From a virus, in IMG/VR virus record IMGVR_UViG_3300008448_000012, positions 1 through 64,000 of that record: a DNA stretch of 64,000 nt, one strand, 5' to 3'. The notes beneath the pieces are model-generated. The model was not told where the DNA came from and ran no database searches. It saw nothing but the letters and a program-made list of their open reading frames with translations. This document shows positions 2 to 48,568 of this stretch, in pieces. The position numbers were made by a program, and so were the translations under genes. The stretch's first letter is position 1, and every line of letters starts with the position of its first letter.

Positions 2-217
2 CAACTCGTCACAGTCTTCTAAAACATCAAATATAAAGTGTTCTTCTCCATATTTATTAAAAGAACTCTGCAGATGAACATTATGATGAATGTTTCCTCT
101 AAGAGCAACCTTGTGATCACAAAGTCTTTTATAAGTGTCTTTTGAAGCACCTATATAAACCTTATTGTTTATCTTATTCTGGATTATGTACACACCAGGA
201 CTACCTTTCTTTCTCAT
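2..217 (-). CDS. GIY-YIG homing endonuclease, N-terminal part (runs off window start)
   Basis: Manual translation: MRKKGSPGVYIIQNKINNKVYIGASKDTYKRLCDH...LQSSFNKYGEEHFIFDVLE; GVY/YIG, Arg and Glu motifs. Absent from the ORF track because truncated. Confidence 0.88.
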   Translation of the reverse strand, partial: MRKKGSPGVYIIQNKINNKVYIGASKDTYKRLCDHKVALRGNIHHNVHLQSSFNKYGEEHFIFDVLEDCDEL

Positions 218-2387: not shown

Positions 2388-3292
2388 CTTAATTTTTTAT
2401 ATGTTTCTATTAATGATGATAGTGATGTTTTTATCGCTCTCCAAGAATTGTAATCAGACTTCTTAACGTCTAGCGATGATATGTTCCTTTCTAATCCTAC
2501 AAGCTCATTCATTAAATGACCTAACGTCCCTTTGTCTAACACCTTCTGAGATTGTTTTGCAAGATGGATAGACAAGATGTCAGAAAGACGCTTCTTGATT
2601 CCATTCATTCTCTCAATGCATTCTTCGTATGTGCCAATGAATGAAAAGTTGCTCTTCTCAAACATTTCTATTCCATATATGTACTTGTCGTCAATCTTGG
2701 CATAAGTTAAACCATTATGATTTGGGATGTCTATTCTTGACTTGTCTATACCGAACTCACTACAAGCTTCATATAAAAGAGTTGGTTTGCTCATTACGAG
2801 CTTGCACTTTGTTTCAGATATATCACTAGCGTTGAACGCTTGCATAGGAACGATACATTTGTACTCACTCACGGGATAGGTGACAAACTCTATTTCTAGA
2901 TTGTGAACAGTCTCTTGTGTTTCGTACACCCCAGAATAAGTCTTTATGAACCTAATCGCCCTAATTTCATCCTCTAGAGTATCATACTCAAAGTCTTCTA
3001 AGTCATCATTCCATTTTCTAGTTTTACCAATCTCATGTAGCTCTGTATTATAATCTATTACAGATATCCTCTCACCATTCTCTTTAGTATATCCAACAGT
3101 TACTCTACGAGAAGTCTTATACGTTGCCGTAACTGGTTTCTCTTTAGTTACAACCAGTTCACCACTCTTGAACCCAAGAATGGGGTCTGCTACAGGCTTT
3201 CCGTTTATCTCCATGGAATTATTATATCCAGTCTTGAATGTGTAGAATCCTGTCTTGGGGTCATGCGCTACTACTAGTTTGTTGTTGTCCAT
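2384..3292 (-). CDS. hypothetical protein
   Basis: 302-aa ORF, 4-nt overlap with the next gene. Confidence 0.85.
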   Translation of the reverse strand: MDNNKLVVAHDPKTGFYTFKTGYNNSMEINGKPVADPILGFKSGELVVTKEKPVTATYKTSRRVTVGYTKENGERISVIDYNTELHEIGKTRKWNDDLEDFEYDTLEDEIRAIRFIKTYSGVYETQETVHNLEIEFVTYPVSEYKCIVPMQAFNASDISETKCKLVMSKPTLLYEACSEFGIDKSRIDIPNHNGLTYAKIDDKYIYGIEMFEKSNFSFIGTYEECIERMNGIKKRLSDILSIHLAKQSQKVLDKGTLGHLMNELVGLERNISSLDVKKSDYNSWRAIKTSLSSLIETYKKLR

Positions 3293-3295
3293 AAT

Positions 3296-3538
3296 TTATT
3301 TTTTAGGTAGACTTTCTTTAAGCATTTCTCTATCCCATATATTGGTATTCCCTACAGCATACTGAGCAATCATGCACATTGTCCACTCAATCATCTCCTC
3401 AGATGTGAATAGCTTTTGTTTTGCTGTGTTGTAGCCAAGTTTCCAATAGTCAAGTCTTTCCAAGTTCTTTTTGAGGTCATCAATATCTTTATCTACCATT
3501 TTGTTGGTATCACCAATATGGTCTGTTTGTTGTGTCAT
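3296..3538 (-). CDS. hypothetical protein
   Basis: ORF starting MTQQT. Confidence 0.7.
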   Translation of the reverse strand: MTQQTDHIGDTNKMVDKDIDDLKKNLERLDYWKLGYNTAKQKLFTSEEMIEWTMCMIAQYAVGNTNIWDREMLKESLPKK

Positions 3539-3547
3539 AGTTTATTT

Positions 3548-3778
3548 TTATTTATTATCTGCATCCCATAGCCCTTCATTATACCCTTCACCAAACTTAT
3601 CCATTAGTTCAGTATCATACATTATTTTTGCTTGATTGCATTTAAATAATAATCCTTTTAAACAATTGTGCATTACAAGCATTGACCATACTACATCATT
3701 ATTATAATCCATTTCTAATATATCCATTTGTTCATTTATTGCTAATATTATTTCATCAAGTGCTGTTTGTTGTGCCAT
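3548..3778 (-). CDS. small phage protein, MAQQTA family
   Basis: MAQQTALD...QAK. Confidence 0.75.
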   Translation of the reverse strand: MAQQTALDEIILAINEQMDILEMDYNNDVVWSMLVMHNCLKGLLFKCNQAKIMYDTELMDKFGEGYNEGLWDADNK

Positions 3779-3781
3779 AGT

Positions 3782-3973
3782 TTATTTGTTTATTTCTATT
3801 AAAAGTTTGAACAGTAAAGTGCTTATCATGAATGTAACAACGAGTACAGCAGATGCTGGACCATAACTATATTCGCCAAGCTTATCAAATATTCTCCTGA
3901 TGAACCAATTGGACAAATGCTGTATAAGTACGATGAATAAGCATAGAGATATTGTTGCGATTGTTACTGCCAT
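3782..3973 (-). CDS. small membrane protein
   Basis: Two hydrophobic stretches. Confidence 0.65.
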   Translation of the reverse strand: MAVTIATISLCLFIVLIQHLSNWFIRRIFDKLGEYSYGPASAVLVVTFMISTLLFKLLIEINK

Positions 3974-3976
3974 AGT

Positions 3977-4234
3977 TTACAGTTTTTCTATTTCTTTTTT
4001 TACTTCTTGCCAACCAACGAAAGAACCTATAATAAGGCCTCTAGCATGAAGGTGTAAATCTTCTGCTACTTTGAGTGATTCTTTTAAGTCTTTTATTATC
4101 TCATCCACTGCTATTAATGCACATTGTTTGGAGCAATACTTTTTATCAAACCCTCTTCCATTATCTGATATCCGTGATTCTGCATACTCATCGAATGCAT
4201 CTATTAGCTGGAGAGCTTTTTCTCTTGGTGTCAT
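3977..4234 (-). CDS. hypothetical phage protein (MTPREKA...CALIAVDEII...WQEVKKEIEKL type)
   Basis: ORF, operon packing. Confidence 0.8.
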   Translation of the reverse strand: MTPREKALQLIDAFDEYAESRISDNGRGFDKKYCSKQCALIAVDEIIKDLKESLKVAEDLHLHARGLIIGSFVGWQEVKKEIEKL

Positions 4235-4237
4235 AGT

Positions 4238-4570
4238 TTATTTGTTTAGTTCATCCAAGTCTTCATCCAATCTTTCAAGAAACGTTTCCTCACCATCATC
4301 TCCTGACAATAGCCAATCTATTCTTTGTGCATACACTTGTGCTATTCTTAAAATGTTGACAGCATCCTTGAACTTAGCAATAACCTCATCAGGATATTTA
4401 TGGTGGTATAAGTCTTCTGGGTATTTCTCATACCAATCAGTACCATGCCATGATTCTTCTCTAAGTTCTCTATCTGTTTTCTTTCTACCATTTGTTTCTA
4501 TCTCTCTTTCAATGGATTCAGCTATATTGCCTATAGCGTATTGCTGATAATCAAATCTTCCACCCGACAA
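4238..4570 (-). CDS. hypothetical phage protein (MSGGRFDY... type), TTG start
   Basis: ORF 4238..4636 trimmed to TTG TCG GGT GGA, preceded by AAGGAGGT-TACT; the N-terminus matches a stub at 5313. Confidence 0.75.
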   Translation of the reverse strand: MSGGRFDYQQYAIGNIAESIEREIETNGRKKTDRELREESWHGTDWYEKYPEDLYHHKYPDEVIAKFKDAVNILRIAQVYAQRIDWLLSGDDGEETFLERLDEDLDELNK

Positions 4571-4583
4571 AGTAACCTCCTTT

Positions 4584-5279
4584 TTATTTTTTATGTTTTT
4601 TAATAGTTCTTGATATAGCTGATTGACAAACTCCAAAAATTCTAGCTATATCATTTTGACTGATTCCAGACTCGTGCATAGTTATTATTTTGCATATATC
4701 TGAACTACATAACTTTACATATACTGGTTGTCTTTTTTGATTCACTCCTGCATCTACATAAGAATATGATTTACCATTTAATACATTACCTATTGTCTTC
4801 CTGTCAACACCATACATTTTACTTATTTCTTTTTGAGTCAACCTACTTTCTGCTAATAGTTTTTTAATTTCAATAACCTGTTCTATTGTTAACTTTTTTA
4901 GAGAAGACTCATAGTAGCCTCGTTTTTCTCCCTTATACTTGTTTTTATTTGCTTTTGAAATATTCATTTTAGTTTCTTCTGACATATACGAATAGCTTTC
5001 TCCAGCTTTAGGTAACCTGCAATTTAATCCAACCTTTGAATCAAGAACATTGAACTTTAGACCATAAAACAACTCTCTTTCAAGTAACACATCTTCAGAA
5101 CATTCTTCAATAATTTCTAACACATGCGCACTCCATGTATATTTCTTTATAGAATTATACAGCTTTGTTTGGCTTTTACAATTCAATCCCTTATACGAAC
5201 AAACTCTGTTAGCTATATCATTAGATGAACCTATATACACCTTTCCACTAGGTGAAGTTATTTTGTAAATACCCATCAT
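4584..5279 (-). CDS. free-standing GIY-YIG homing endonuclease with NUMOD3-like and C-terminal HTH repeats
   Basis: GIYKITSPSGKVYIGSS, ERELFY, MSEETKMNISKANK, two HTH-like repeats. Confidence 0.92.
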   Translation of the reverse strand: MMGIYKITSPSGKVYIGSSNDIANRVCSYKGLNCKSQTKLYNSIKKYTWSAHVLEIIEECSEDVLLERELFYGLKFNVLDSKVGLNCRLPKAGESYSYMSEETKMNISKANKNKYKGEKRGYYESSLKKLTIEQVIEIKKLLAESRLTQKEISKMYGVDRKTIGNVLNGKSYSYVDAGVNQKRQPVYVKLCSSDICKIITMHESGISQNDIARIFGVCQSAISRTIKKHKK

Positions 5280-5313
5280 TTTGCAAATATACGTCAAACA
5301 TTCCTCCTGACAT
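5248..5313 (-). pseudogene. orphaned 5' stub (MSGGMFD...) of the gene now at 4238..4570
   Basis: ATG TCA GGA GGA ATG TTT GAC versus TTG TCG GGT GGA AGA TTT GAT; stops after 21 codons inside the HEG. Confidence 0.7.
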
Positions 5314-5317
5314 AATA

Positions 5318-5668
5318 TTACATTTTACAAGGTTTCTCTTTTCTTTTACCCTTCTGCATAGCCCAATTGACAATCTTTGCACTGACAAACCCACCTAATG
5401 TAGTGAGAGCTATATCAGTTACAGAAGGTTTACCACCATAATATAAATCATATCCTTCTTTAGCTACACCAGCAACAGCAGCACTGAATGTACCTATCAT
5501 GATTCTCTCTCTTGGGGTTTTGCCATACAGCATAGACGCTCCTGTACCTACACCAAATCCTACAACAAAATGTGCATAGCTATGTACATGATTCACACGA
5601 ACATTATACTGTGCATTGCTTGTTTGCATTTTCAGGAGAATAACCACTAACAAAATTACCTTTTTCAT
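5318..5668 (-). CDS. membrane protein, YfiM/VanZ-like
   Basis: Signal peptide, HFVVG...GVAKEGYD...SVTDIALTTLG pattern. Confidence 0.55.
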   Translation of the reverse strand: MKKVILLVVILLKMQTSNAQYNVRVNHVHSYAHFVVGFGVGTGASMLYGKTPRERIMIGTFSAAVAGVAKEGYDLYYGGKPSVTDIALTTLGGFVSAKIVNWAMQKGKRKEKPCKM

Positions 5669-5913
5669 TATTTTACGTATAAAAGTTTAGGAATCAATTC
5701 TTTAGGCTTTTCCTCTTTCCCATACATGAATTCATATATATCATCTATATGAAATGTATCTACTATTTTCTTTATATAATCAATACTAGGCAGACGTTCT
5801 CCTGACTCCCATCTTGCAAGAGTTCTGGAAGTGACACCAGCAATTTTTGCAAACTGCTCATATGTCATTCCATACTCTGTACGCAAGATTTTGATGTTCA
5901 ATCCAATTTTCAT
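5668..5913 (-). CDS. XRE-family HTH transcriptional regulator
   Basis: IKILRTEYGMTYEQFAKIAGVTSRTLARWESGERLPS. Confidence 0.9.
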   Translation of the reverse strand: MKIGLNIKILRTEYGMTYEQFAKIAGVTSRTLARWESGERLPSIDYIKKIVDTFHIDDIYEFMYGKEEKPKELIPKLLYVK

Positions 5914-6050
5914 AGGAATTCGCTTAAATAATCATCTTTTTCCAACTCACATTTAGCACATTTACATTTAACTCTGATCCCGTAAATGTACAAAATGTCC
6001 CATTTGTGTCCAAACAATTTGCATTTGAGCTTTGTTACAATCTTTTTCAT
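5910..6050 (-). CDS. small Zn-binding phage protein (DUF1660-like, 46 aa)
   Basis: Manual ORF ...LKCKLFGHKW...KCAKC. Confidence 0.65.
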   Translation of the reverse strand: MKKIVTKLKCKLFGHKWDILYIYGIRVKCKCAKCELEKDDYLSEFL

Positions 6051-6073
6051 TCTGGTTTAATTGATGTGTGTGT

Positions 6074-6110
6074 AAATAAAAATGCATGAACACCTTAATT
6101 CATGCATTTT
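6074..6110 (-). terminator. intrinsic terminator after tmRNA
   Basis: AAAATGCATGAA / TTCATGCATTTT 12-bp stem followed by a T-rich tail. Confidence 0.75.
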
Positions 6111-6111
6111 G

Positions 6112-6488
6112 TGGAGGTATTGGGATTCGAACCCAAGTCCAAACTAGAAGTCAATAAACAAATTCATTACATGCTTAGATCTGACAAGCTGATCAGTAAG
6201 GGATGACCGCATGAGGTCAAATCTCCACCACTTAGTTTATTTGTCAGAAAACTAAGAAACCTAGGAAATTTAATCCGTGTGTCATTTTCTGTTTCCAGGT
6301 ATGACTACCCAGTTGCTTATGCAGCGATTGCTACATCAGCGAAGAGAGAAGCAAGGATTGCTTCACCTTCAGCAACACGCTCAGAAGTTGTCTTAGCGTT
6401 TATTTGTTGTACACAGTTTAAAGAGATGTAGTACCTATCTCTGCATGTTTGTTTACCACTCACAAGTCTGTCAAAACCTGTTACCCCC
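6112..6488 (-). ncRNA. ssrA: tmRNA (one-piece, 377 nt)
   Basis: Acceptor GGGGGTA/TACCTCC-A with G3.U70, T-arm TTGGG-TTCGAAT-CCCAA, resume context ATAAAC-GCT, tag AKTTSERVAEGEAILASLFADVAIAA* (6397..6317); CCA not encoded. Confidence 0.95.
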
Positions 6489-6544
6489 ATATGTCCGTTA
6501 TTTCATACATTTTGGACTATTTTGTCTGAAATAACAAACATTTG

Positions 6545-45347: not shown

Positions 45348-45965
45348 ATGGCTTCATTTACAGGAATAATTTATCTCACTATTAACCAAATAAACGGAAA
45401 AGTTTATGTTGGACAAACTGGTGTTGATAGTAGTTCCTATATAGGAAGTGGTAAAGCAATGTTAAAAGCTATTAAAAAGTACGGAAAGTCAAACTTCATT
45501 AAAACAATACTTAGAGATAGCATAAAATCTTTAGAAGAATTAAATTTCTGGGAGGATTTTTATATAAGATTATTTGATTCTAGAAATCCAAAAATTGGAT
45601 ATAATATTCGTCCTGGTGGAAAGAATTCTAAATTTAAACACACTCCTGAATCTATTGTAAAAATTAAAAAAAGAAGTAATCAAGAAGATAACAGATTGAG
45701 AATCAGACAAATACAAAAAGTTGCAGCTGATACCAGAAAAGGGACGCATCATTCTAAAGAAGCAAAATTAAGAATAATGTCTACTAAATTTGGGCATGTT
45801 AAAGAAATAGAAATATATAAAAAGGATGGTGAGGTTTTATATACGTGCAATTTTTCAACTGAAGCTTCTGATCTTACTGGAGTAAAAAGAGCAGCAATTG
45901 CCAATAATCTTGCTGGTCTTTCTAAATCCGCAGGAGGATATATTTTTAAATATAAAAACAATTAA
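45348..45965 (+). CDS. free-standing GIY-YIG homing endonuclease (NUMOD3/NUMOD1-like tail)
   Basis: IIYLTINQINGKVYVGQ, YIGSG, E.FYI, GYNI..GG, HTPES, SAGGYIFKY. Confidence 0.92.
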   Translation: MASFTGIIYLTINQINGKVYVGQTGVDSSSYIGSGKAMLKAIKKYGKSNFIKTILRDSIKSLEELNFWEDFYIRLFDSRNPKIGYNIRPGGKNSKFKHTPESIVKIKKRSNQEDNRLRIRQIQKVAADTRKGTHHSKEAKLRIMSTKFGHVKEIEIYKKDGEVLYTCNFSTEASDLTGVKRAAIANNLAGLSKSAGGYIFKYKNN

Positions 45966-45967
45966 CA

Positions 45968-48568
45968 TTGGCAAGCTTTACAGATACCATAATGCAATTT
46001 AACCCCTACGTTCAGCAATTGCCTACAGAGGCAATGGCTCAAGTGGGTATGTATAAACAGCAGAAGTATGAGGAGGGGGTACAAAAAATCCAGTCTGAAA
46101 TCGATAGGGTTGCTGGATTGGATGTTATACGAGATGTTGATAAACAATATCTCCAATCAAAACTTAATGAACTTGGAGGTAAATTAAAAACTGTAGCTGC
46201 TGGTGACTTCTCAAACTTCCAATTGGTCAACTCTGTAGGAGGAATGGCTACGCAGATTGGTAAAGATCAAAATGTTAGAAATGCAGTTTCATCTACAGCT
46301 TGGTATAGAAAGCAGGTTGCTGAAATGGAAAAGGCTATTTCTGAAGGAAAATCTAGTCAATCCAACATTTGGGATTTTAATCAAAGAGCAGATGCTTGGA
46401 AAAACTCAACAGATATCAAACAAGGATTTAGTGGTAGGTATACACCTTACGTAGATGTAAATAAAAAGTTTCTTGATGTATTGAAGACATTAAATCCAAA
46501 TGCCACTCAAGAAGATATTGCTTATGAAATTGATCCTGTCACTGGTAAAGTAGATACTAAGCAGATTGCTGCAGCAATGGCTAGAAAAGGATATGAAGGA
46601 GTTAGTGCTGCAAAAATTGAAAATGCACTGAATGCAACATTGACTCCTGATGATATCAATCAGCTTTCTATAGATGCAAGATATAGGTTTAAAGATTATG
46701 GTGTTCCTGATTTACAAAACTATGCAAAACAACAAGTTAAATCAAGAACAGATAACATAGATACAAAAATTCAAGCTTTAGAAAAGTTTTCAAAGCTAAG
46801 TTCTTCTAGCCCAGAAGATGTAACTACAGCATTACAATCTATACAGGATTTAAAAAACAAGAGAGCAAAAATAGAAAGTGAACTTCCTTCTCAACTTGAA
46901 GCTATTGCAAGAAACCCTGACGGAACAAAGTTCAATATTTATAAAGAAGGATATTTAGATAGTTTTTCAGAAGCATTTTCTTGGGAAAAACAAAAGCTTG
47001 AACTTCTTACAAATCCTGTTCTTGCTGCTGACCATTGGGCAAAAGAATATAAAATAACTCAAGCTAGATTAAATCTTGATGAACGACAGTTTAACTGGAA
47101 ACAGTATGTAGAGGGAGAAGGTCTCAAGATGAGAAGAGAAGAACTTGATTTGGAAGTTGCCAAAACTTATGGAACTGCTGGATTTACAACATATGGAGGT
47201 GAAAGCACTAATGTAAAAAATCCAGTAGTTGCAATGAAGCAAGATGCTAATGCTAAAGATCAAATGGCATTGGATGGAGTTAAACAAATGGCTGTAGGAT
47301 TGTTTGGAAAAGCAACTCCTGAAAATATTGGAGCTATAGAAAGTTCAATTCTTAAATATCAAAATGCAACCACTGATGCTGAAAGAAATGCAATTCCTGT
47401 AGAATGGAGAGAGGTTGCTAATGGTATTATTGAGAACAGAATCAAAGCTAAAAATATAACCAATGCACTTTCTGAATCTGAAAAAAGAGCAATGGCTAAT
47501 CCAGCATTAGCAGGATCTGCTGCTGCAATTGATAATGCTCTTAAATCAAAGAAAGGATTTACTATTACTGTAGGAGGTAAACCTACATATTTTAGCAATA
47601 GAGAAATTCTTGACTATTTAAGCAAAGAAGGACCTAGAGGTATTGCTTCAGGTGGAATTATAACAGGTCCAAACACTGCTGCACAACCAGTAGGAACTCC
47701 TATTGATCCAAGTACACTAAGTCCCAAAGAAAGAATATTGTACGAAGTAGTGAAAAATAATCGTTATGGTTTGGGAAAAGCCACTGCTGCACAGGGTGCT
47801 ATAAACGGTATACTTAATCAATATACAGATCTTGTAAATCAAGGAAAGAGTTTTAAAAATTCAATGGACTCATATGTTTCTCAAGATATGCTCCAAAGAT
47901 CTGGTAAATATATTCCTTCAATTAGTTCTATTTTTGTAGGAGGAGATAAGGAAGATAACCTTGCAAGAAATAGAATGGAATCAATTGTTGGTACAGTGCT
48001 TAGCAGATATGCAAAAGATAAGGGAGGAGCAGAAGGACTGGATGTATCTGGTGCAGCAGCACTTCTTGCTGCAGAAGGTAAAAATGCAATTCAATATCAA
48101 AAAGTTTTGCAAGGGGACAAGGCATATGTAGTTATGAAGAAAGGGAATGATGAATTCATGATTCCTGTAACACCTATGGAAGCTGCACAACTTCCAAAAA
48201 TGAAAGGTGAGCCATCTCCATTGGAAGTTGATATCACTACAACACAACAGTTGAATGGTGGTACAACCAATGCTAGCGGAAATGCTGAAGATTCTTACTT
48301 CCAAAGATTCAATTTTAGTAATGTTAGGAATTTGAATGTTACAGCAGATTTGAAAAGAAATGTTTCCAATCCAGCAATCCAATATATGACTGTTCAATTA
48401 AAAACACCGTCTGGTTGGAAGTCTCTACCACTTACAGACTATCCAATGGATGTAAGTAAAGCAGCTACATTGGTTGGTACGTTTACAGATAACGATATAG
48501 TTCAGTATTTTTTGAATAGTAAGAATGTTCCACAGTCTTGGAAAGACGAAATTAAAACTCTTCGATAA
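45968..48568 (+). CDS. large virion ejection-like protein, TTG start
   Basis: 866-aa ORF upstream of the RNA polymerase. Confidence 0.8.
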   Translation: MASFTDTIMQFNPYVQQLPTEAMAQVGMYKQQKYEEGVQKIQSEIDRVAGLDVIRDVDKQYLQSKLNELGGKLKTVAAGDFSNFQLVNSVGGMATQIGKDQNVRNAVSSTAWYRKQVAEMEKAISEGKSSQSNIWDFNQRADAWKNSTDIKQGFSGRYTPYVDVNKKFLDVLKTLNPNATQEDIAYEIDPVTGKVDTKQIAAAMARKGYEGVSAAKIENALNATLTPDDINQLSIDARYRFKDYGVPDLQNYAKQQVKSRTDNIDTKIQALEKFSKLSSSSPEDVTTALQSIQDLKNKRAKIESELPSQLEAIARNPDGTKFNIYKEGYLDSFSEAFSWEKQKLELLTNPVLAADHWAKEYKITQARLNLDERQFNWKQYVEGEGLKMRREELDLEVAKTYGTAGFTTYGGESTNVKNPVVAMKQDANAKDQMALDGVKQMAVGLFGKATPENIGAIESSILKYQNATTDAERNAIPVEWREVANGIIENRIKAKNITNALSESEKRAMANPALAGSAAAIDNALKSKKGFTITVGGKPTYFSNREILDYLSKEGPRGIASGGIITGPNTAAQPVGTPIDPSTLSPKERILYEVVKNNRYGLGKATAAQGAINGILNQYTDLVNQGKSFKNSMDSYVSQDMLQRSGKYIPSISSIFVGGDKEDNLARNRMESIVGTVLSRYAKDKGGAEGLDVSGAAALLAAEGKNAIQYQKVLQGDKAYVVMKKGNDEFMIPVTPMEAAQLPKMKGEPSPLEVDITTTQQLNGGTTNASGNAEDSYFQRFNFSNVRNLNVTADLKRNVSNPAIQYMTVQLKTPSGWKSLPLTDYPMDVSKAATLVGTFTDNDIVQYFLNSKNVPQSWKDEIKTLR

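What the first reader, a model, noticed from the sequence alone, without database searches (positions are those of the whole stretch)
4238..5313. Homing endonuclease inserted into a gene start and followed by a recoded replacement N-terminus (case 1)
Seen: upstream of the GIY-YIG gene, at the normal operon position, is ATG TCA GGA GGA ATG TTT GAC (MSGGMFD), which ends after 21 codons. Downstream of the HEG stop is TTG TCG GGT GGA AGA TTT GAT TAT (M-SGGRFDY), opening the intact gene. The peptide is nearly identical but most codons differ. No flanking intron scaffold is visible. Known: free-standing phage HEGs spread by intronless homing and need a cleavage-resistant allele. Inference: a mobile unit that lands within the first codons of a gene and carries at its 3' end a recoded, non-ATG restart, which both restores the gene and removes the cut site.
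Basis: partly seen in the sequence, partly recalled or inferred. Interest (0 to 1): 0.9.

Follow-up and report, generated by a model that had tools for sequence, protein, structure and literature searches.

The report
Homing endonuclease cassette replacing a gene start
A selfish DNA-cutting-enzyme gene sits seven codons inside a conserved phage gene and keeps that gene working without splicing by bringing its own ribosome-binding site and TTG start, leaving the original start as a dead stub; this design is known from fungal mitochondria but I found no description of it in phages.

Summary
On the minus strand a 21-codon stub opens with MSGGMFD four bases after the upstream gene. An intact GIY-YIG/HTH homing endonuclease gene (HEG) follows, then a strong Shine-Dalgarno site and a TTG that opens a 110-aa gene beginning MSGGRFDY. 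About 2000 relatives of that gene begin MSGGxFDY, so the stub is a real relic of the gene's start.

Three other phage contexts carry a related HEG at the same codon, each with a stub and a non-standard restart (TTG, ATT, ATG plus an extra codon). For one of them, HEG-free relatives show a single ATG start directly after the same upstream gene. The SD-TTG flank is conserved between two cassettes whose HEGs are only 56% identical.

- The "recoding" looks like ordinary divergence between two alleles.
- TTG+SD starts also occur in three HEG-free lineages.
- Loss of the cut site is untested.

The same design recurs at two other genes of this genome and at a terminase gene elsewhere. Earlier notes of this scan report it on other DNA. 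The closest known systems are fungal mitochondrial mORF elements and the T4 MobA element. I rate it a new variant of a known kind.

The parts
5318..5668 (-). Upstream 116-aa gene of unknown function (probably a membrane protein). Its stop lies 4 nt before the stub ATG.
   Evidence: ORF list. No significant Pfam or PHROG match. No relatives in IMG/VR.
5251..5313 (-). Stub: the native start of the MSGG gene. 5313-5293 is the homologous part (MSGGMFD). The rest runs out of frame across the endonuclease start to TAG at 5253-5251.
   Evidence: The family N-terminus MSGGxFDY is seen in about 120 listed relatives. ATG-TCA-GGA-GGA is a common native start in HEG-free loci.
5280..5292 (-). Cassette leader of 13 nt between the stub and the endonuclease ATG. 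In the endonuclease frame it reads ..YICK before MMGIYKIT.
   Evidence: Relatives P0126, P0139, P0146, P0142 and P0144 carry a similar leader peptide (..Y/F-I-C-x-M-x-GIYKIT).
4584..5279 (-). Free-standing GIY-YIG homing endonuclease gene (231 aa) with two C-terminal helix-turn-helix modules.
   Evidence: Pfam GIY-YIG 26.8 bits against a cut-off of 22.6; HTH_38 and HTH_3. phrog_314 homing endonuclease, 6e-20. Residues invariant in 40 homologues are present.
4571..4583 (-). Cassette-borne translation signal: AAGGAGG at 4582-4576 and a 5-nt spacer.
   Evidence: Most genes of the family and of this window lack a Shine-Dalgarno site. Many relatives of the endonuclease end in ..KEG(E)V, which encodes AAGGAGG.
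4238..4570 (-). Target gene: a 110-aa phage protein of unknown function (MSGGxFDY family), restarted from TTG at 4570.
   Evidence: No Pfam or PHROG match. Atlas neighbours are viral hypothetical proteins.
45348..45990 (+). Second instance of the same design in this window. The native start and 5 codons (MASFT) are fused in frame to a GIY-YIG gene (45348-45965). Two nt after its stop, TTG at 45968 restarts the 866-aa gene (M-ASFTD...).
   Evidence: Empty-site relatives L310, L311 and L313-L315, and a second HEG-bearing phage, L316.

Best explanation
This is a splicing-independent homing-endonuclease cassette that sits inside the 5' end of a conserved phage gene.

Shown here:
- A free-standing GIY-YIG/HTH endonuclease gene is inserted after about codon 7 of the MSGGxFDY gene.
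- The resident start (native translation-initiation region plus 7 codons) remains upstream as a non-functional stub.
- The cassette's 3' end supplies a Shine-Dalgarno site and a TTG start codon.
- In this window the stub and the restart differ only at silent or variable positions. They therefore appear to derive from two different functional alleles, so a foreign copy of the first codons probably came with the cassette.

Inferred:
- The endonuclease recognises a long site that spans the start codon and the first 8-10 codons of HEG-free alleles and cuts it in a co-infected cell.
- Repair from the HEG-bearing genome copies the cassette. The long gene body serves as right-hand homology. The short stub, any related upstream DNA, or an illegitimate joint serves on the left.
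- After insertion neither copy is a complete site. The stub lacks the codons beyond the insertion point, and the restart has a changed start codon and a new upstream context.
- The endonuclease is translated from its own ATG at 5279. Alternatively it starts at TTG 5297, which lies 5 nt after the stub's GGAGGA.
For: Anatomy and chance.

The target is a large conserved family with an almost invariant N-terminus: 1971 hits, and MSGGxFDY in about 120 listed.

The endonuclease is intact and there is no intron.

The same endonuclease clade sits at the same codon in four different phage backgrounds, each with a stub and a restart:
- the window;
- L003 (stub at 3244, TTG restart at 4001);
- L327/L333 (stub at 1155, restart at 1921 with ATG plus an extra Cys codon);
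- L328-L330 (stub at 1143, restart at 1934 with ATT).
Two further relatives, P0142 and P0144, begin MSGG in frame with the endonuclease.

Empty sites: L148 and L158 share L003's upstream gene and have one ATG start at the position of L003's stub. L003's gene body is native: it groups with them at SH-aLRT 94.

Non-standard restarts occur in 4 of 4 HEG-bearing contexts against 4 of 103 HEG-free contexts (Fisher p = 1.4e-5). This is not corrected for relatedness.

The SD-TTG flank is conserved between cassettes whose endonucleases are 56% identical.

Recurrence at other genes:
- window 45348-45968, with five empty-site relatives and a second HEG-bearing phage;
- the same genome at about 76.7-77.5 kb;
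- the terminase large subunit in L243.
Against: - No HEG-free close relative of this particular phage could be fetched. The empty site is therefore shown for L003, not for the window itself.
- SD+TTG starts also occur in HEG-free loci L175, L185 and L188/L189, so a TTG start is not diagnostic of the cassette.
- The four restarts share no common synonymous recoding. In L003 only the start codon, one Ser third position and one Tyr third position differ from the native allele. Protection by recoding is therefore doubtful.
- The stub is one base out of frame with the endonuclease here, unlike the in-frame fusions elsewhere, so its present role is unclear.
- Cleavage site, activity, homing and use of the TTG start are all untested.
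Confidence: 0.75

Rival explanations
1. Neutral scar of one-sided, illegitimate homing. The endonuclease gene originally lay between genes, just upstream of a natural SD+TTG allele. It cut a diverged phage near the gene's 5' end. Only the right side had homology, so the left end was joined illegitimately. The recipient's first codons were left as a meaningless stub. The restart is simply the donor allele's own start and has no selected role in immunity.
For: HEG-free alleles with the same kind of SD+TTG start exist. The upstream genes of the four HEG-bearing contexts are unrelated. The differences between stub and restart fit two functional alleles. The restarts differ between lineages.
Against: The junction lies at nearly the same codon in four backgrounds, and a stub is present in all of them. 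A non-standard start occurs in 4 of 4 HEG-bearing contexts against 4 of 103 HEG-free ones. The same design is found at three other genes, including exact in-frame capture of the native start. In L003 the gene body from codon 3 onward is native, so the donor tract is only SD + TTG + a few bases. That is hard to obtain from a long one-sided conversion.
Confidence: 0.17
2. The stub has been retained as a functional leader ORF. It delivers ribosomes from the gene's native initiation region to the endonuclease start, or its GGAGGA codons serve as the Shine-Dalgarno site for TTG 5297. In this way it controls endonuclease expression. This adds to the main explanation and does not exclude it.
For: The stub's AGGAGG lies 5 nt before an in-frame TTG at 5297, the same spacing as the SD-TTG of the restart. 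In L003 the decayed stub ORF stops 8 nt before the endonuclease ATG. In P0142, P0144, window 45348, L143 and L243 the native start is fused in frame to the endonuclease.
Against: In the window the stub is out of frame and ends 26 nt after the endonuclease ATG. L003's stub peptide is decayed, so the peptide itself is not conserved. No significant RNA structure was found.
Confidence: 0.25
3. The insert is removed by splicing: either a group I or group II intron with an endonuclease ORF, or an intein. The stub would then be a first exon.
For: Some phage genes have unannotated short first exons next to endonuclease genes (ICP1 terminase; PMC10055350, read).
Against: Only 13 nt flank the ORF on each side. 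No Rfam intron was found. The downstream gene has its own complete, family-typical N-terminus, so an exon 1 would be redundant. The endonuclease is not in frame with the gene and has no Hint domain.
Confidence: 0.01
4. Chance resemblance: the upstream ATG-Ser-Gly-Gly is only a Shine-Dalgarno-like GGAGGA that happens to read MSGG.
For: GGAGGA is a ribosome-binding motif and lies before a possible TTG start of the endonuclease.
Against: The pattern is expected 0 times in the window and occurs only at these two places. Stubs are also present in L003, L327 and L328.
Confidence: 0.01

Closest known systems
Mobile endonuclease ORFs (mORFs) of fungal mitochondria that create gene hybrids: Allomyces macrogynus atp6; Glomus atp6, atp9, cox2 and nad3 (PMC3630166, read; PMC7487136)
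   Same: A GIY-YIG or LAGLIDADG endonuclease gene inserts inside a coding gene without an intron. It carries a foreign copy of the gene's terminus that takes over. The native terminus remains beside it as an unused duplicate. The two copies are alike as protein but diverged at silent sites.
   Different: There the C-terminus is replaced and the endonuclease lies downstream of the working gene. Here the N-terminus is replaced. The cassette must therefore also supply translation-initiation signals (SD plus TTG, ATT or coupling), and the native start is left to the stub or to the endonuclease. The host is a phage, not an organelle.
MobA element of T4-like phages: HNH endonuclease + CTE/NTE + homR + the gene 60 bypass (bioRxiv 10.1101/2022.08.31.505936, read; review PMC2988022)
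   Same: A phage endonuclease cassette lies inside a coding gene with neither intron nor intein. It brings its own diverged copy (homR, 67-81% DNA identity) of the target segment and a new start for the downstream part. Empty-site relatives exist, and so do 'hit and run' scars.
   Different: MobA splits the gene into two functional proteins mid-gene and needs a 50-nt translational bypass. Here nothing is split: the whole protein is remade from a new start and only 7 codons are duplicated. The nuclease family also differs (GIY-YIG, not HNH).
Free-standing GIY-YIG endonucleases of T-even phages (Seg proteins) and intronless homing (PMC2988022)
   Same: A free-standing GIY-YIG nuclease domain with a C-terminal DNA-binding module, a patchy distribution among related phages, and a position next to a conserved gene.
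   Different: Seg genes are described as lying between genes, and spread needs homology on both sides. The review text found here describes no retained stub or cassette-borne replacement start.
Intron-encoded GIY-YIG endonucleases such as I-TevI
   Same: The same nuclease fold. A long two-part target that is split by the insertion would explain immunity.
   Different: No ribozyme is present. Gene function is restored by re-initiation of translation, not by RNA splicing.

Membership tests
GIY-YIG homing endonuclease (free-standing) | GIY-YIG catalytic domain with its conserved residues | tested here: met
   Pfam PF01541 scores 26.8 bits against a cut-off of 22.6. phrog_314 scores 6e-20. The columns invariant in 40 homologues (G2, Y4, Y14, G16, R24, E68, N85) are present.
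GIY-YIG homing endonuclease (free-standing) | Separate DNA-binding module | tested here: met
   HTH_3 at residues 138-171 and HTH_38/HTH_23 at residues 189-229.
GIY-YIG homing endonuclease (free-standing) | Presence/absence polymorphism at one site among related genomes (empty sites) | tested here: met
   L003 against L148 and L158 for this target. Window and L316 against L310, L311 and L313-L315 for the second target. Not shown for the window's own lineage at this locus.
GIY-YIG homing endonuclease (free-standing) | Site-specific cleavage of the HEG-free allele and transfer in mixed infection | not testable with these tools
   Needs enzyme assays or crosses. The phage is uncultured (an IMG/VR record).
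mORF-type terminus-replacing endonuclease element | The endonuclease gene is accompanied by a second copy of the gene terminus that is the one in use, and the native copy is left as a remnant | tested here: met
   The stub at 5313-5293 and the restart at 4570-4550. The same holds in L003, L327 and L328. Use of the restart is inferred from the intact ORF only.
mORF-type terminus-replacing endonuclease element | The inserted terminus is foreign: it groups away from the native one | tested here: inconclusive
   Differences between stub and restart lie only at silent or variable positions (0.0015 by my count), which fits two alleles. The 21-nt tract is too short for a tree. In L003 the gene from codon 3 onward is native.
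Group I/II intron or intein | Ribozyme core, or Hint domain in frame | tested here: not met
   No Rfam match in 3500-6500 at E <= 1. Only 13-nt flanks. No Hint domain.

The most novel reading that the evidence does not exclude
Phages harbour a widespread, undescribed class of 'start-replacing' homing-endonuclease cassettes. They land a few codons into a conserved gene and take over its native initiation region for the endonuclease. They re-equip the gene with a deliberately non-standard start (TTG, ATT, a shifted ATG, or stop-start coupling). That altered start would be the immunity determinant against the cassette's own enzyme. It could also tie expression of the host gene to translation of the endonuclease. 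HEG-free SD+TTG alleles, and the allele with the cassette's synonymous codons at the second target, would then be hit-and-run scars or selected resistant alleles.
Probability: 0.4. Interest if true: 0.8.

Novelty: new variant of a known kind. Interest (0 to 1): 0.65.

Why it matters
It would show a third way, besides introns and inteins, for a homing endonuclease to live inside an essential coding sequence of a phage. The cassette replaces the gene's start and hands the old one to itself.

Consequences for annotation:
- Short ORFs before endonuclease genes may be relics of the neighbouring gene.
- Non-ATG starts after endonuclease genes are real.
- Endonuclease ORFs may be called with foreign N-termini.

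It also predicts where the enzymes cut, namely the first roughly 30 bp of the target gene. That gives testable enzyme-site pairs from metagenomes. Finally, it offers a source of start-codon and 5'-end polymorphism in conserved phage genes.

Tried and rejected
- INPHARED phages, blastn of 3500-6100: no match.
- Relatives of the upstream 116-aa gene in IMG/VR: none. The window's own empty site could therefore not be shown.
DNA around the closest target relatives (P0004-P0007, 77-86% identity) and the closest endonuclease relatives (P0124, P0142, P0144) could not be read.
- First endonuclease scan with exact peptides missed the true relatives. Alignment-based scans found them.
- Rfam with permissive thresholds: no intron, only a tmRNA nearby.
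- RNA folds of the stub region, the SD-TTG region and the second restart: z-scores of -1.15, +1.62 and +0.55, nothing significant.
- A generic scan for peptide repeats flanking about 100 related endonuclease genes was too insensitive for repeats of 5-7 codons. Scores of 5 or more out of 7 occurred in 20% of loci against 9% of mismatched controls. It recovered L243 but missed known cases.
- The careful tree did not finish. Only the quick tree with SH-aLRT support was used.
- An in-frame or frameshift link between stub and endonuclease in the window was considered. One base (5292) separates the frames. I found no evidence for programmed frameshifting and treat it as decay.
- The fourth GIY-YIG gene of the genome, which spans the record ends, shows no duplication of its neighbour's start.

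Full report
**Observation.** The genes of this region lie on the minus strand.
- The upstream 116-aa gene stops at 5320-5318.
- Four bases later, ATG at 5313 opens a 21-codon ORF that begins MSGGMFD.
- A 231-aa ORF runs from ATG 5279 to TAA 4586-4584.
- AAGGAGG lies at 4582-4576, and TTG at 4570 opens a 110-aa ORF that begins MSGGRFDY and ends at 4238.

A degenerate pattern for the shared seven codons hits the window only at these two places, with none expected by chance.

**The target gene.** The 110-aa protein has no Pfam or PHROG family, and its Atlas neighbours are viral hypothetical proteins. It nevertheless has about 2000 relatives in public data. Nearly all of the roughly 120 listed begin MSGGxFDY, with position 5 free to vary. 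In 104 distinct DNA contexts from IMG/VR and JGI metagenomes the gene nearly always starts with a plain ATG, has no Shine-Dalgarno site, and often has exactly the codons of the window's stub. The stub is therefore a genuine relic of this gene's start, sitting where the start should be.

**The insert.** The ORF has a GIY-YIG domain above Pfam's cut-off and two helix-turn-helix modules. It belongs to phrog_314, homing endonuclease, and keeps every residue that is invariant in 40 homologues. Only 13 nt on each side separate it from the stub and from the restart. Rfam finds no intron. Splicing is not a viable reading, and the downstream gene does not need it.

**Relatives with and without the insert.** Of 160 loci fetched through the target gene, my first motif-and-tblastn pass flagged only L002/L003, two contigs of one phage type, as carrying a relative of this endonuclease. 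It is 56% identical and lies directly upstream of the gene, which starts with TTG. That pass would have missed restarts such as those of L327 and L328.

L148 and L158 share L003's upstream gene and lack the endonuclease. In them a single ATG start follows the upstream stop by 10 nt. L003 has ATG-Ser at exactly that place, followed by a decayed remnant, then the endonuclease, then the SD-TTG restart. From the third codon on, its gene is nearly identical to the HEG-free relatives and groups with them in the tree (SH-aLRT 94).

Scans with an alignment of 40 endonuclease relatives found two more contexts:
- L327/L333, a 217-kb phage: stub MSGGHFN, and a restart with ATG plus an extra Cys codon.
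- L328-L330: stub MSGGTFI then a stop, and a restart on ATT preceded by a GGAG-like site.

Two further relatives known only as proteins (P0142, P0144) begin MSGG in frame with the endonuclease. The upstream genes of the four DNA contexts are unrelated. The element therefore follows the target gene, not the neighbourhood.

**Is the restart part of the mobile unit?** Four results say yes.
- The window and L003 share the 3' flank (A-run, GGAG, two bases, TACTTTGTC), while the last 40 residues of their endonucleases are poorly conserved.
- Many relatives end in ..KEG(E)V, which encodes AAGGAGG.
- In L003 the tract that differs from the native allele is just this flank, the start codon and one or two silent positions.
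- All four HEG-bearing contexts have a non-standard start, against 4 of 103 HEG-free contexts (p = 1.4e-5). That test ignores relatedness, although the four restarts are different solutions in different phages.

**Is it "recoded"?** In the window the two 21-nt copies differ at six positions. All six are the start-codon first base, third positions, or the free codon 5. By my count the chance of that is 0.0015. This is the signature of two alleles that diverged while both were functional starts: a resident one and an incoming one. Fungal mORF elements show the same pattern. The four restarts share no common set of silent changes, so I see no evidence for designed recoding at this target. The alteration they do share is the start codon region.

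**A complication.** HEG-free loci L175, L185 and L188/L189 also have SD+TTG starts. Relative to close sisters with the same upstream gene, they differ by a 6- or 13-nt insertion that holds GGAGGT, plus ATG to TTG. They are scattered among ATG alleles in the tree. They may be the kind of allele the cassette's restart came from, alleles selected for resistance, or scars left by loss of the endonuclease gene. I cannot tell which.

**Recurrence at other genes.**
- *Window 45348-45968.* Here a different GIY-YIG gene begins with the native promoter, leader and first five codons (MASFT) of the 866-aa gene that follows a tape-measure-like gene, fused in frame. Two bases after its stop, that gene restarts on TTG with different Ala and Ser codons. 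Five HEG-free relatives show the uninterrupted start. A second phage, L316, has the same endonuclease, stub and TTG restart. One HEG-free allele, L309, has ATG followed by the cassette's codons.
- *The same genome at about 76.7-77.5 kb.* A third GIY-YIG gene begins with the leader and nine codons of an RQIG-type tail gene, and the gene restarts 2 nt after its stop.
- *L243.* A related endonuclease begins MADIKAIIKQ, and the terminase large subunit restarts MADIKDIIKK with four silent differences.

Earlier first-reader notes of this scan had flagged the two other cases in this genome. Follow-up reports describe the same design in other genomes. Those are unchecked AI notes. I verified only the two in this genome.

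**Mechanism.** The insertion point, the stub, the cassette-borne start signals and the empty sites are shown. The rest is inferred by analogy with I-TevI and the Seg enzymes, on my own knowledge.
- The enzyme has a long two-part site over the start codon and the first codons.
- It cuts naive alleles in mixed infection, and repair copies the cassette.
- The insertion separates the two halves of the site in the stub.
- The restart escapes through its changed start codon and new upstream sequence.

The endonuclease probably starts at ATG 5279, as in L003. TTG 5297 lies 5 nt after the stub's GGAGGA and is an alternative. Elsewhere the endonuclease simply uses the gene's own start.

**Comparison and novelty.** The closest known systems are two:
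- Fungal mitochondrial mORF elements replace a gene's C-terminus with a foreign copy and leave the native one behind (PMC3630166; PMC7487136).
- The MobA element of T4-like phages brings a diverged homR copy of its target and a new start for the downstream half (bioRxiv 10.1101/2022.08.31.505936).

Five keyword searches of the held library found no description of an N-terminal, start-replacing version in phages. That is absence from the library, not proof of absence from the literature. I class it as a new variant of a known kind.

**Limits.** There is no HEG-free sister of this phage and no biochemistry. The tree is a quick one. The association test is not corrected for phylogeny.

Noticed in passing
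window 45348-45990 (+): A second start-replacing cassette. The GIY-YIG ORF begins with the native leader and MASFT of the following 866-aa gene, and that gene restarts on TTG 2 nt after the endonuclease stop. Empty-site relatives and a second HEG-bearing phage were found.
   Followed up: yes
G000:C1 about 76.7-77.5 kb (L143 1480-2306), outside the window: A third cassette. The GIY-YIG ORF begins MGIPNRQIG fused to IYKIT and shares its leader with the upstream 390-aa tail gene. A 46-aa ORF that begins MIPSRQIGW follows 2 nt after the stop. It looks truncated and ends in a Thr run.
   Followed up: partly
window 6109-6488 (-): A phage-encoded tmRNA: Rfam RF00023, 98.6 bits, full length.
   Followed up: no
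L243 1474-2121 and 2114 onward (IMGVR_UViG_3300025769_000090): A related endonuclease is fused to the first 9-10 codons of the terminase large subunit. The terminase restarts with an ATG that overlaps the endonuclease stop. A terminator-like hairpin precedes the stub.
   Followed up: partly
L248 about 1479-1503 and 2170-2194: A 24-nt stretch of 5' leader is duplicated before the endonuclease ATG and before the downstream gene's ATG (about 79% identical). This may be a variant in which only the leader is duplicated. The score is close to chance level.
   Followed up: no
L309 2501 (IMGVR_UViG_3300020159_001521): A HEG-free allele of the 866-aa gene with the native leader and ATG, but the cassette's Ala and Ser codons (GCA AGC). 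It may be a scar of endonuclease loss or a resistant allele.
   Followed up: no
L175 95, L185 581, L188/L189 3001: HEG-free MSGG genes with a 6- or 13-nt insertion that holds GGAGGT and a TTG start. They are scattered among ATG sisters that share the same upstream zinc-ribbon-like gene.
   Followed up: partly
window 2-217 (-), continuing at the end of the 114,470-bp record (114-bp terminal repeat): A fourth GIY-YIG gene (251 aa) spans the record ends. Its stop overlaps the ATG of a gene with a DIET exonuclease-like motif. The neighbour's start is not duplicated.
   Followed up: partly
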